NCBI GenBank assembly: GCA_964016885.1
Contig: OZ024748.1
Location: forward strand, 54,002,001-54,066,000
Source: Eledone cirrhosa
Lineage: Eukaryota
Direction of reading: 5' to 3'
Length of the DNA stretch: 64,000 nucleotides
Shown here: piece after piece, positions 10,005-64,000 of the stretch
How positions within the stretch are numbered: position 1 is the stretch's first letter
How the letters are laid out: every line of letters begins with the position of its first letter
Position numbers and translations under genes: made by a program
The notes under the pieces: model-generated
The model's database searches: none
The model's input: only the letters and a program-made list of their open reading frames with translations
Told to the model about the DNA's origin: nothing

Positions 10005-10150
10005 AGGAAAAGGTTCAGGGCCCCGACGTCTGAGCTCCGGTCTTTTCAACAGCTAGATCCGAACTACTCTATTACCCACTCTACTACCCTAAGTATTGAG
10101 TACTCTGGTGCGTTATGGTCCACCTGGTATCTTACTACACCTTCTTAGTT
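10005..10150 (+). mobile_element. Hairpin-tail family C (subfamily 2), right arm deleted
   Basis: Left arm matches 49683 (ttcagg.ccccgac...cagctagatc), then the shared tail tattacccactctactaccctaagtattgagtactctggtgcg; (TA)n on both sides. Confidence 0.85.
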
Positions 10151-10250
10151 AAATATATATATATAAAATGTAGTTTAATAAATAAACAGAGAACAAAAAA
10201 CAGGAAAACGAAGAAGCAGTACAAATGATATATATATATATATATATAAA

Positions 10251-10351
10251 AATGAAAAATGGCGAGCTGTGTTGCAAATATGATATATATAATAAATTCA
10301 GTTATTATATATATATCATATTTGCAACAACACAGCTCGCCATTTTTCATT
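10251..10351. repeat. Fold-back hairpin (~45-bp arms) directly after (TA)n
   Basis: aatgaaaaatggcgagctgtgttgcaaatatgata...tatcatatttgcaacaacacagctcgccatttttcatt. Confidence 0.9.
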
Positions 10352-10850
10352 CATATATGCTTTCCCCTTCGCTGTGACCTGTCTTTTTCTCTTCCCTTAC
10401 TGCTATCCGCTTTCTCTCTCCCCCTTCTCCCTCTTACTTTCACTCACCTCCTCTGCTAGTCACCCTCTCTCGGCTAGCTTCTTCTTCACACTTTCACTTA
10501 CTCACTCTCTGCTACTCACCCTCTCTCTCACTTCCTCCATCGTCGCACACTGTACGAGATTCTTTCTTCGCTCACATGCGCACGGCCAAGATGTGTCTTT
10601 GACTTCTCGTCAATATTCGCAAGTTCTTATGTTCAAAATGAATTATTGACTTGATTTTCTCATTTTTTCCTCTCTTTACGTTGCCTCACCATTCGTGTTT
10701 GGTTACCTGTCTCTCTTTCTCCACCCAACTCTTTTTATCACAATAACTTAATTTAGTTATTGCATCGCCCTAGCTTGAGGTATATGGTCTGTAATGCGAA
10801 GAAAAATACCTATGATGGCTAGTATTTATTATATATATATATATATATAT

Positions 10851-11044
10851 ATAGGAAAAAGTATGACCCCGACGACAGAGCTCAAGCCGTTTCGACGGCT
10901 ATTTCTGGACTGAAATAGCCGTCGAAACGGCTTGAGCTCAGCCGTCGGGGTCATACTTTTTCCTATTACCCACTCTACTACCCTAAGTATTGAGTACTCT
11001 GGTGCGTTATGGTCCATCTGGTTCCTTACTATAATTCCTTCGTT
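10851..11044 (+). mobile_element. Hairpin-tail family C, complete copy
   Basis: ~55-bp arms (10851-10966), loop tggact, ~78-bp tail, (TA)n flanks; GAAA-cggc-TT at 10924-10933. Confidence 0.92.
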
Positions 11045-11069
11045 ATATATATATATATATATATATATA

Positions 11070-11585
11070 CAGTAAGTCCCCAACTAATGAACGTTCCAAG
11101 AGACCGTTCGTTAGTTGATTTGTTCGTAAGTCCTTCCAGTAAGCCCATCTATGTTATATTGATACTGCAGGTTTCCATAGGAGTGATATATATATATATA
11201 TATATATACACAATATATAGAAGTATGTATAATATGTAGGAATGGTTTCTGATTTAGGCACAAGGCCAACACTTTTGGGGGAGAGGGGGGAAGTCGATAA
11301 AATAGACCTCAGTTCATTACTGGTTCTATATGTTATCGACCCTGTAAGGATGAAAGGTAAAGTTAACCTCGGTGGGATTTGAACTCAGAAAATAAATTTA
11401 AATACTGTAGAGCTAATGACAATGAGTGTTTTTAAATAAAAGTACTTTTTCAATTCTGTGAAATCAGAACGTAATCCCATACTGTAGGTAAGTTTCCACT
11501 TGTTTTTATGATGCAAAACAAGGAACCCAGGGCCTTAAAGAGCCCACAAAAATTCGAACAGAGACTGTTCGTATCTGCGGAAGTT
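11070..11585. mobile_element. Decayed pogo/Tigger-like DNA transposon remnant interrupted by a SINE
   Basis: TA + cagtaagtccccaactaatgaac resembles a Tigger-type TIR; gttcgta motifs near both ends. Confidence 0.4.
11241..11390 (-). mobile_element. SINE family A (head truncated)
   Basis: ttatcgaccctgtaaggatgaaaggtaaagttaacctcggtgggatttgaactcag. Confidence 0.85.
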
Positions 11586-11586
11586 C

Positions 11587-11700
11587 GTCCGAAACGTTAA
11601 GACTCTCTTTCTGATATTTCAAGCGTTAAACTAATATATTTCTTCCATGTACTGTGTTGTTTGTTTTGTTATTTTTATTATTTCTGTTTACCTTTTACAT
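11587..11700 (+). mobile_element. PLE-type 3' tail fragment (same family as 17893)
   Basis: tccgaaacgttaagactct...tcaagcgttaaactaata.tttcttc..tgtactg shared with 17910-17980. Confidence 0.6.
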
Positions 11701-61387: not shown

Positions 61388-61586
61388 CGGGGTCGGCTGA
61401 ACAGTTCATAGGCTGACCAAGATACTCTCATGGAATGAACAAATGAGATTTATTTTTTCAACACAGTCCGTGGAAAGAAACAATGCACTTATTAATAAGG
61501 AGAGGTGAAATTAATGCAGGCAAGATTTCACAGCACTAACATCACTTCTTTATTAAGCAGTCTATGAACTTTGCAGCCCAGCTTCG
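61388..61586. mobile_element. Mariner-type MITE
   Basis: TA-cggggtcggctgaacagttcataggctg ... cagtctatgaactttgcagcccagcttcg-TA. Confidence 0.7.
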
Positions 61587-62010
61587 TATACAAACATACT
61601 AAATGGCCGAAACAGCTTTAATAATCAGATTTGACCTGGTGCTAAACAAAAACAGCAACAAACAAACACATACTAACAGATGCGCGTTTGGCCTCCTAGA
61701 AATAACAGCTAAATATTATTCACGTCGCTTCCTTCTGTTTTCGAAAAGAAAATCACATCTCATCAACATCATCATCATCATTTAGCGTCCGTTTTAACAA
61801 GAGTTGCATACTTACACACACACACACACACACACACACATATATATATATATGTATATATACACATACATATATATGTATTTGTCCAAAATAATACCGC
61901 CCACTCCCCTAAAGGGTCATGGAAAAAGTGATATGATATATATGTATATATATATATGTATATATATATATATATATATATATATATATATATATATATA
62001 TATATATATT

Positions 62011-62089
62011 CTGTTGAAATGTGTATACATTTTGGGTGGACACCCTATATATAGGGTGTCCCCCCCAAAATGTATACACATTTCAACAG
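62011..62089. repeat. Palindrome formed from a Tc1-type MITE end mirrored across TATATA
   Basis: ctgttgaaatgtgtatacattttgg..gacaccctatatatagggtgtc..ccaaaatgtatacacatttcaacag; cattctaataaatat shared with the 57705 MITE. Confidence 0.85.
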
Positions 62090-62783
62090 CATTCTAATAA
62101 ATATGTGTATACATTTTGTGTGTGTGTGTGAATGTATACATACATACACATATATATGTATATATGTGCGTGTGTACATACAGACAGAGTAAATCAGTTC
62201 TAAATGTGCTATAATCTAACTAAAAGACAGGATGGTCACGTCTGGAGTGCCCTGTCGTTATAGGTAGGTTTACACTATCACGAGGGGCCTGGAGCTAAAC
62301 AACAACAACAACAATATATACGTACATATATTTAAGAAAACATTCTGAGCTCTACATACACTCACGCTTCCCTTCAACATTATGACATGGCCAAAGTGCT
62401 GATGGGAAAAAAAAATCTATCTGCCATGTCGTATATTCTTTACATAGCAGTGAGCCATTCTAGTGGAAGAAACGAAGAAGATATTATATATAGAGTATAT
62501 CTGTGTATTTGGAGAATTTGGTGGGATTTTTTTGTAGTTTCTTTTTTTTTTTTTCTTTTTAAAATTATTTTCTTTATATTTTTTTGTATTTTGGTCATAT
62601 CACGTGTTAGACATTCTGTCTGTCTTTCAGTCGATTTAGTTATTTATCTATCTATCTTTATCTATCTAGCAGTCTCTCTCTCTCTTTCTCTCTCTCTCTC
62701 TCTCTCTATATATATATATATATATATATATATATATATATATTTAATATCGGTCTAGCCATCTATCTCTTTTACTATCTCGC

Positions 62784-62835
62784 AAATAGCCGTCGAAACG
62801 GCTTGAGCTCTGCCGTCGGGGACATACATTTTCCT
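62784..62835 (-). mobile_element. Family C solitary arm
   Basis: aaatagccgtcgaaacggcttgagctctgccgtcggg..cata..ttttcct-(TA)n. Confidence 0.85.
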
Positions 62836-63930
62836 ATATATATATATATATATATATATATATATATATATATATATATATATATATATATGGAGAGAGA
62901 GAGAGAGAGAGATGAAGGAGCTCTCACACACACATACACAAATATATAGATATGTAAACATGCTTCTATACATCTGTCAAGAATATCTGTTCGCCCTTTC
63001 CAATACATTACCTATCTCTTTAAGGTTCAAACCACACCACGGTATCGTTCTAGGGTCGATAAAATAAAATAGCAGTGAAAGTACTGGGGTCGATTTAATT
63101 GATTACTCCAGGCTGTTGGTTTTGTTCCTAGAAATCATACTTAATCTCTCCTTACATCTACCGACGTGTCTTTCTCTAACACCATTCCAAGTGTGTATTT
63201 ATGCCTATAAGTATATATTAGATATACAGAGAAAATCTTATAAATGTATAATATATATATGTAACTTCACGTTACACTCCATGGATATATATACATATCT
63301 CTCTCTCTCTTTGTATATATATATATATATATATATATATATACATATATATATATCTATACAAATATATATATATATATATACATTTATATTTATACAA
63401 ATATATATATATATATACATATATATATACAAAAATATATACATATATGTATCTATACAAATATATATATATACATTTATATATATATATATATATGTAT
63501 ATATATATGTTATATATATGTTATATATATATGTATATATATATATTTGTATAGATATATATATACATTTATATATATATCTATACAAATATATATATAT
63601 ACATATATATATATATATATACAAATATATACATATATATATATCTATACAATATATACATATATATATCTATACAAATATATACATATATATATATATA
63701 TATACATATATATATCTATACAAATATTTACATATATATATATATAAATATATCTCTACAAATATGTACATATATATATATATATATATATAAATATATC
63801 TCTACAAATATGTACATATATATATATACAAATATATATATATTTAAAATTTAAACAAGGTTCAATGAATAAATCTAAGAATGACTGAATCTTAACCATC
63901 TAGTATGTCAGGGTATGTCATGCATCATCT

Positions 63931-63997
63931 TATTTTATCTGATGAGGTCGTACTGTTGAACTTAACTCAGTACCTCTGAAATATTTATAATAAAATA
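63931..63997 (+). ncRNA. Type I hammerhead ribozyme (family D, element cut by the window end)
   Basis: tattttat-CTGATGA-ggtcgtactg(ttgaacttaact)cagtacctct-GAAA-tattta-TA-ataaaata; perfect 8-bp stem I. Confidence 0.75.
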
Positions 63998-64000
63998 TAC

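What the first reader, a model, noticed from the sequence alone, without database searches (positions are those of the whole stretch)
10005..64000. Shared (TA)n-hairpin-tail-(TA)n architecture across at least 9 unrelated families, with fold-backs built on hammerhead ribozyme sequence
Seen: about 25 short elements sit in or against (TA)n and consist of a long inverted repeat plus a one-sided tail (families C and D; singletons at 10251, 18766, 23608, 36941, 37512, 41681, 48761, 49144). Despite no shared primary sequence, most arms carry GAAA-short loop-UH, oriented away from the hairpin centre: GAAA-cggc-TT (C), GAAA-tgta-TA, GAAA-caattg-TA, GAAA-caattg-TT, GAAA-ccttggg-TA, GAAA-cagcg-TA. Family D carries the whole hammerhead. 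Established: Penelope-like element pseudo-LTRs contain minimal type I hammerheads with exactly this 3' half, and PLE copies can have inverted 5' ends. Inference: these are PLE-derived minimal elements in which cDNA primed at a TA repeat folds back at or just upstream of hammerhead helix II, copies itself, and rejoins the TA tract, replacing the CUGANGA half with a mirror image. Whether this has already been described for this genome cannot be determined here.
Basis: partly seen in the sequence, partly recalled or inferred. Interest (0 to 1): 0.9.

Follow-up and report, generated by a model that had tools for sequence, protein, structure and literature searches.

The report
Penelope retrotransposon hairpins in TA repeats
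The hairpins sitting in TA runs are short, head-to-head copies of several Penelope-like (Hydra-clade) retrotransposons, a known layout, and their joints suggest they are likely made by two reverse-transcription starts on one RNA that stall near its hammerhead ribozyme and are then joined.

Summary
The architecture is real, and for most families the origin is shown. Families C, D′ (and D through it), 37512, 48761 and 49144 trace to longer copies with a Hydra-clade Penelope-like ORF. 36941 is related to such a family. No ORF-bearing parent was found for 10251, 18766, 23608 or 41681. An inverted 5′ copy, a one-sided tail, a hammerhead and (TA)n targeting are all published for Hydra elements, including an octopus family. 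C's true ribozyme is a U3–A8 variant with a long helix III. A single fold-back from the tail-primed cDNA does not fit family C. Genome-wide, the tail-less arm is the longer one in 1,444 matches and the tail arm in 1,595; zero-loop palindromes exist; and the tail-less end also occurs on single copies. Yet 42 of 44 hairpins have one tail, and the arms share a subfamily in 40 of 41. Best model (inferred): two cDNAs primed at two sites of one RNA, stalled in helix II (shown for C only), then joined. New members of a known kind, with a testable handle on how PLE inversions form.

The parts
10005..10152 (+). Family C copy: tail-less inverted arm joined straight to the tail; the tail-side arm is missing
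10854..10963 (+). Family C hairpin (arms 93% complementary); right arm holds the hammerhead's GAAA, long helix III, cleavage triplet and helix I 3′ strand; joint in helix II
10964..11042 (+). Family C tail (79 nt) with the RCTC…GAGY-RCT motif; ends at (TA)n
13052..13283 (-). Family C tail plus hairpin with longer arms (80/77 nt)
33454..33564 (-). Family C copy with degenerate arm, sharing a TA tract with the D copy
34035..34435 (.). Two older C-type copies (34035-34194 on -, 34245-34435 on +)
49535..49866 (.). Two family C hairpins back to back (49535-49673 on -, 49685-49866 on +)
51897..52097 (-). Family C tail plus hairpin
56979..57107 (+). Family C copy: tail-less inverted arm joined into the middle of the tail; a near-identical copy lies at 57555-57684 on -
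58791..58947 (+). Family C hairpin, tail-less arm longer (54 against 26 nt)
62744..62834 (+). Single tail-less family C arm ending at the same site as the inverted arms
23181..23542 (-). Family D copy: tail, arm, inverted arm with the complete hammerhead
33614..34022 (+). Family D hairpin (33614-33934) plus 88-nt tail
33831..33891 (+). Complete minimal type I hammerhead of family D (CUGAUGA core, palindromic loop III, 8-bp helix I)
57149..57509 (-). Family D′ single tailed copy; relatives carry a Hydra ORF about 400-600 nt upstream
10251..10829 (+). Inverted arm pair (10251-10351) on a longer repeat body; no hammerhead motif in the arms; parent unresolved
18766..19019 (-). Tail plus hairpin; a longer relative (L088) has a complete hammerhead, and the window joint lies at its cleavage site; no ORF seen
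23608..23926 (-). Tail plus hairpin of a high-copy family (1,618 first-look candidates); no CUGANGA and no linked ORF in 19 relatives
36944..37190 (+). Hairpin plus tail; 79% like the 3′ end of the 719-aa Hydra family over 56 nt
37513..37705 (-). Tail plus hairpin; the tail arm keeps the whole hammerhead (core at 37640-37634); relative L083 has a Hydra ORF end about 200 nt upstream
41681..41870 (+). Old hairpin plus tail, probably a distant relative of C; no ORF in 19 relatives
48761..49022 (+). Hairpin plus tail; parent L242 has a near full-length Hydra ORF and a hammerhead with a long helix II; the window arms start downstream of it
49144..49392 (+). Hairpin plus tail; L263 links this arm to a Hydra ORF end 1.1 kb upstream; only a degenerate core, no hammerhead by descriptor

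Best explanation
These are short, 5′-truncated, head-to-head insertions of several Hydra-clade Penelope-like retrotransposons in (TA)n, likely formed when the element's protein cuts both strands of a TA tract and primes two cDNAs from the two broken ends on one RNA. One cDNA would start at the end of the tail and the other at the arm/tail boundary, so only one arm has a tail. Both would run toward the RNA 5′ end and often stop early; in family C they stop at the internal loop and inner stem of hammerhead helix II. The two cDNA ends would then be joined by a few bases of microhomology, untemplated bases, or a short snap-back of either end. Shown: parents, boundaries, joint positions, symmetry, subfamily match. 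Inferred: double cut, two primings on one RNA, stalling, joining.
For: Parents: the 719-aa ORF has RWK, DKT, YRDD, CxCX5C, CxxC and CxH, the Hydra traits in PMC8557442 section 11. ORFs 27-47% identical to it lie upstream of the C, D′, 37512, 48761 and 49144 arms. L256 is a 5.8-kb version of the same layout. Two fixed ends: among unselected C copies, 35 single arms end tail-less at TA and 22 carry the tail. Raw reads of three other samples show TA directly behind both sites (about 2,800-3,200 reads per run behind the arm end). Coupling: 42 of 44 unselected hairpins were classed one-tailed and none tail-less on both sides; independent choice of site allows at most half. Arms are of the same subfamily in 40 of 41 (shuffled mean 7.7, maximum 19). 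Symmetry: tail-less arm longer 1,444, tail arm longer 1,595; locally 16 against 13, with 13 within 2 nt (n=42). 4,164 strand matches (about 2,100 loci) have both arms reaching the same stop, including zero-loop palindromes and one-base untemplated joints. Large asymmetries favour the tail-less arm in L204 (120 against 32 nt), L256 and window 10005 and 56979. In vitro, a Poseidon PLE cleaves and extends both strands, starts at two RNA sites that bound the tail, and is predicted to be a dimer (PMC11167929).
Against: No biochemistry for Hydra elements. The symmetry count covers one family and one class of joint; deletions at palindrome centres after insertion could also make the centre symmetric. 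The commonest asymmetric joints leave 4-6-nt loops, the geometry of a snap-back, so fold-back is probably part of the joining. Two cDNAs copying the same stretch of one RNA needs strand displacement (untested). The joint does not sit at one register of the ribozyme across families (47-76 nt upstream of the core in D; downstream of it in window 48761). The family D tally is biased by its query. No empty allele was seen.
Confidence: 0.62

Rival explanations
1. One reading: one cDNA primed at the tail end folds back, copies itself and rejoins the TA tract; later deletions at the palindrome centre blur the asymmetry.
For: Explains the single tail and matching subfamilies. 4-6-nt loops and short snap-back additions occur at C joints. 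In family 23608 some copies (L290, L298, L300, L301) have only a 25-30-nt inverted piece at the stop site.
Against: The tail-less arm is longer about half the time, also in copies whose arms are nearly identical. Tail-less single copies end at the same site. In D the inverted arm runs past an internal TA run to a fixed end. Zero-loop palindromes exist.
Confidence: 0.15
2. The hairpins are self-propagating non-autonomous elements (SINE- or retrozyme-like) copied as whole units from a few master hairpins.
For: Stereotyped size and very high copy number (1,890 first-look candidates; 15 C hairpins in 950 kb).
Against: The same joint recurs with different subfamily ends and in mirror form at near-equal numbers. 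Sizes grade up to ORF-bearing 5.8 kb. C hairpins lack the ribozyme's 5′ half, and no tandem arrays of these units were seen in the loci read.
Confidence: 0.1
3. Self-priming on an antisense transcript or its cDNA, as proposed for rotifer Penelopes, makes the head-to-head palindrome before integration.
For: Proposed in PMC3846280 (Discussion passage) from palindromes at inverted junctions; it would give matching arms.
Against: Does not by itself give two fixed sense-strand ends shared with single copies, nor clustering of joints at a sense-strand RNA structure.
Confidence: 0.08
4. DNA transposons (MITE, Helentron, Crypton) or assembly artefacts.
For: The hairpin at 62011 does look MITE-derived (relatives have terminal inverted repeats and TA flanks). 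Four listed families lack a shown parent.
Against: RT-bearing parents for five families. Strand-change joints in raw reads of other samples start at the same helix II zone in 9 of 13 listed rows.
Confidence: 0.03

Closest known systems
Hydra-clade Penelope-like elements (Craig et al. 2021, PMC8557442), including Hydra-1_Obim and Penelope-13_HM
   Same: Single ORF of about 700 aa with RWK, DKT and CxCX5C; hammerhead near the 3′ end; (TA)n targets; inverted 5′-truncated copy and a tail at one end (Fig. 2 legend; File S1 notes an inverted copy on Penelope-13_HM).
   Different: The hammerheads of C, D, 37512, 48761 and 18766 differ by eye from the one listed for Hydra-1_oBim, so these look like further families. 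Tails are 60-140 nt, not 30-40. C has a U3-A8 core and a long helix III. Most C copies are about 190-nt hairpins cut in helix II.
Poseidon element of Anolis (Frangieh et al. 2024, PMC11167929)
   Same: Two RT start sites bounding the tail, both strands cleaved and extended, AT-rich targets.
   Different: Another clade; in the two parts read (1-2 of 4) the paper does not use these properties to explain inverted copies.
Adineta vaga Penelopes with inverted pLTRs (Arkhipova et al. 2013, PMC3846280)
   Same: Head-to-head inverted pLTR, palindrome at the joint, optional tail on one.
   Different: Low copy, with target-site duplications; explained there by self-priming on an antisense template.
Non-LTR retrozymes (Cervera and de la Peña 2020, PMC7229834; bioRxiv 10.64898/2026.07.22.740005)
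   Same: Short, non-coding, type I hammerhead, PLE-related.
   Different: Retrozymes are head-to-tail tandems that give circular RNA; these are head-to-head, dispersed and often lack half of the ribozyme.
LINE-1 twin priming (recalled, from no call)
   Same: Two primings from the two ends of one break give an inversion.
   Different: LINE-1 inversions use non-overlapping parts of the RNA; here both cDNAs copy the same stretch from two fixed start sites.

Membership tests
Hydra-clade PLE | Single ORF with RT motifs, RWK and DKT | tested here: met
   719-aa frame with RWK, DKT and YRDD in L141-L144; C and D′ parents 40-44% identical to it, their N-termini incomplete in the loci read
Hydra-clade PLE | CxCX5C linker, then a C-terminal GIY-YIG endonuclease lacking CCHH, with CxxC and CxH | tested here: met
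   Motifs present in the 719-aa and C-parent proteins. Pfam gave no hit on them; one of 120 listed homologs carries PF01541 (read as GIY-YIG from recall). The fold prediction had not finished, so the domain call rests on motifs.
Hydra-clade PLE | Placement in the Hydra clade by RT phylogeny | not tested
   No reference PLE set was aligned
Hydra-clade PLE | Type I hammerhead near the 3′ end | tested here: met
   Descriptor hits in C, D, D′, the 719-aa family, 37512, 48761 and 18766; none in the 36941, 49144, 23608, 41681 and 10251 stretches tried. Cleavage not assayed.
Hydra-clade PLE | (TA)n insertion preference | tested here: met
   Most of the 30 C and 30 D loci read abut (TA)n; raw reads agree
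Hydra-clade PLE | Inverted 5′-truncated copy and a tail at one end | tested here: met
   42 of 44 unselected C hairpins one-tailed; L256 at 5.8 kb
Hydra-clade PLE | Window elements linked to an ORF-bearing parent | tested here: inconclusive
   Met for C, D′ (D by 82% similarity and L072), 37512, 48761, 49144; related family for 36941; not found for 10251, 18766, 23608, 41681
Non-LTR retrozyme | Head-to-tail tandems with a complete hammerhead in each unit | tested here: not met
   Copies are head-to-head and dispersed; only 9 distinct C sequences among all loci held had the 5′ half
Non-LTR retrozyme | Circular RNA intermediate | not testable with these tools
   No RNA run of this organism was offered
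MITE or other DNA transposon | Inverted repeats at both termini and no RT parent | tested here: not met
   One-sided tail and RT-bearing parents; 62011 is the exception

The most novel reading that the evidence does not exclude
PLE inverted repeats are the signature of a dual target-primed reaction: one protein dimer uses both ends of a double-strand cut to prime two overlapping cDNAs on a single RNA, one at each end of the tail. The hammerhead fold acts as a brake that sets where they stop, and a conserved stem-loop in the tail marks the start sites. In this genome the process has written tens of thousands of near-perfect hairpins, a candidate source of the unexplained excess of long dsRNA reported for octopus.
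Probability: 0.45. Interest if true: 0.78.

Novelty: new member of a known kind. Interest (0 to 1): 0.58.

Why it matters
How PLEs form their tandem and inverted structures is named as an open question in PMC8557442 (Discussion passage). Family C gives thousands of young, independent insertions whose joints can be counted, and the counts separate a single fold-back from two primings. The result links the two start sites and two-strand activity seen in vitro (PMC11167929) to the head-to-head layout. If transcribed, these hairpins would be ready ADAR substrates: PMC5625713 reports an exceptionally high share of long dsRNA-forming loci in octopus without repeat annotation. That link is inference. 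That this genome is an octopus is also inferred (3.0 Gb, about 27 chromosome-scale contigs, repeats recalled from memory) and was not tested.

Tried and rejected
Rfam scan: the 150 listed of 458 matches were microsatellite or hairpin look-alikes, none a hammerhead model. A pattern for a canonical core 20-50 nt upstream of C's GAAA gave 75 matches that read as chance or mirror hits; the real core is a U3-A8 variant 54 nt upstream. Pfam and PDB sequence searches gave nothing useful for the Hydra proteins. The fall in read depth at helix II was not used: read ends pile up at AATT sites, which suggests restriction digestion. No empty allele was found; contigs over 23590-24130 came from many copies. 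The joint tally was not extended to families 49144, 37512, D′, 23608 and 48761, so symmetry is shown for C only. An early idea that C and D have fixed RNA 5′ ends and no parent was dropped when longer copies were found. A seeming one-base mismatch shared between arms came from query selection. Type II/III hammerhead readings of 10251, tried by eye, did not hold. A paper search for the U3A8 variant found nothing; that this pair keeps activity is recalled, not checked. Three look-ups in earlier findings were empty.
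Full report
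Setting. The window lies in a 3.0-Gb genome, G000 contig C8. It is rich in (TA)n and has no tblastn hit to the Hydra proteins. I read the whole window, fetched 95 other 10-kb stretches at round coordinates (weighted to small chromosomes, not a random draw) and ran 12 genome searches.

Observation. In the 950 kb outside the window, 44 of 214 inverted pairs fell in the class TA|hairpin|tail|TA (the classifier is crude). Family C had 15 hairpins and 13 single arms there, which would scale to tens of thousands of copies. The motif GAAA-N4-7-UH faces outward in 8 of 11 arm segments against 2.6 expected, so it is more than chance, but it is missing in 10251 and 48761.

Parents. A relative of element 36941 (79% over 56 nt) sits at the 3′ end of a young family with 719-aa frames. 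The protein has RWK, DKT, YRDD, CxCX5C, CxxC and CxH, the traits given for the Hydra clade in PMC8557442 (section 11 read whole); 1,698 proteins of similar length match it. Related ORFs lie upstream of the family C arm (L254-L256, L258), the D′ arm (L268, L273, L279, L284), 37512 (L083), 48761 (L242) and 49144 (L263). D itself is 82% like D′ over 128 nt, and in L072 a D-type arm is joined to an antisense ORF start. L256 is the whole architecture at 5.8 kb: (TA)n, tail-less arm with ORF, joint, arm with ORF, hammerhead, tail, (TA)n. For 10251, 18766, 23608 (19 relatives read) and 41681 (19 read) no linked ORF was found.

Hammerheads. A type I descriptor found complete motifs in C, D, D′, the 719-aa family, 37512, 48761 and 18766, and none in the five other families' stretches. 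In C the core is U3-A8 in 8 of 9 long sequences, position 7 varies freely, helix II spans 54 nt, and helix III is a 5-bp stem ending in the cleavage triplet 17 nt before the tail. The joint lies in helix II in C, 47-76 nt upstream of the core in D, at the core in window 37512, at the cleavage site in window 18766 and downstream of the ribozyme in window 48761.

Mechanism tests in family C. (a) Two fixed ends. Among copies not selected by a query, 35 single arms end tail-less at TA, 22 carry the tail and 6 end otherwise; some singles may be halves of broken hairpins. Raw reads from three other samples of one study show TA directly behind both sites. (b) Coupling. Of 44 unselected hairpins, 41 were TA/tail, 1 other/tail and 2 tail/tail, none TA/TA; among query-selected ones 3 were TA/TA and 2 tail/tail. 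(c) Same source. Arms share a subfamily in 40 of 41 classifiable hairpins (shuffled mean 7.7). (d) Stop zone. 67 of 84 inner ends fall at -49 to -65, the internal loop and inner stem of helix II in the predicted fold; 9 of 13 listed strand-change joints in raw reads start there. (e) Symmetry. Two mirror-image patterns anchored on the tail gave 1,444 matches with the tail-less arm longer and 1,595 with the tail arm longer, controls 0; locally 16, 13 and 13 within 2 nt of 42. (f) 4,164 strand matches have both arms reaching the same point, among them zero-loop palindromes, one-base untemplated joints and short snap-back additions (first 100 listed).

Reading. A fold-back from the tail-primed cDNA explains (b) and (c) but needs the tail arm to be longer and a loop to exist; (a), (e) and (f) go against it unless the centres were remodelled later. 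Two cDNAs primed from the two ends of a cut TA tract, at the two ends of the tail on one RNA, explain all six. This fits PMC11167929 (parts 1-2 of 4 read): both strands cleaved and extended, two start sites bounding the tail, predicted dimer. The common 4-6-nt loops suggest that either cDNA end may snap back before annealing to its partner, so fold-back survives as a joining step. All of this paragraph is inference.

Tail motif. Seven of 11 exemplar tails carry GAGY-RCT 18-29 nt from the boundary (0.1 expected from shuffles), preceded by an RCTC that can pair with it, with A-U and G-C versions. The motif was chosen after seeing these tails; variants appear by eye in several unassigned families of the same call.

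What is known. The inverted 5′ copy, one-sided tail, hammerhead and (TA)n bias are all described (PMC8557442 passages, section 11 and supplement part 2 of 59, which lists Hydra-1_Obim). PMC3846280 (passages) proposes self-priming on an antisense template. PMC4209133 (passages) describes minimal PLE hammerheads with palindromic loop III. Retrozymes differ (PMC7229834 passages; bioRxiv 2026 part 1 of 5). PMC8967140 (passages) notes Penelope expansions in coleoids without structure. Nine searches of the open library showed no paper on these short hairpin families or on a two-priming origin of PLE inversions; subscription journals, Repbase, Dfam and the preprint's supplements were not seen.

Verdict. 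Real, PLE-derived, and a known layout, so new members of a known kind. The value lies in the counts, which correct the proposed mechanism and make an open question testable. Interest 0.58.

Noticed in passing
tails, e.g. window 10964-11042, 33935-34022, 23608-23683, 37513-37574: A shared RCTC…GAGY-RCT stem motif 18-29 nt into the tail of divergent Hydra families, with A-U/G-C exchange; candidate protein-binding or RT-start signal.
   Followed up: partly
L083:730-1660; L305:1270-1700; L084:1055-1600: Head-to-head joins between two different families with no TA between them (37512-type with C; D′ with 23608; an unassigned Hydra ORF with C), as two separate RNAs would give; later insertion or deletion is not excluded.
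   Followed up: no
L289-L307 (family 23608): Joints cluster at one short palindrome about 15 nt upstream of a second GAAA, with repeated mini-duplications that suggest repeated snap-back.
   Followed up: partly
window 62011-62100 and 57708-57814: Hairpin and copy of a small element with terminal inverted repeats and TA flanks, MITE-like and not PLE.
   Followed up: partly
window 17830-18020, 11579-11674, 18255-18730, 35040-35250, 63845-64000: Further dispersed repeats with hammerhead-like cores by eye, several ending at microsatellites; likely other PLE 3′ ends.
   Followed up: no
L141-L144: A young, high-copy autonomous Hydra family: 150 scored matches at 93-100% to its C-terminal part and several open 719-aa frames.
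   Followed up: partly
window 33401-34533 and 48670-49980: Elements of different families stack in shared TA tracts, so TA runs act as sinks for repeated insertion.
   Followed up: no
window 10251-10829; L099, L101, L221: A repeat of about 560 nt found in partial tandems, with a CUGAUGA near one end but no convincing hammerhead.
   Followed up: partly
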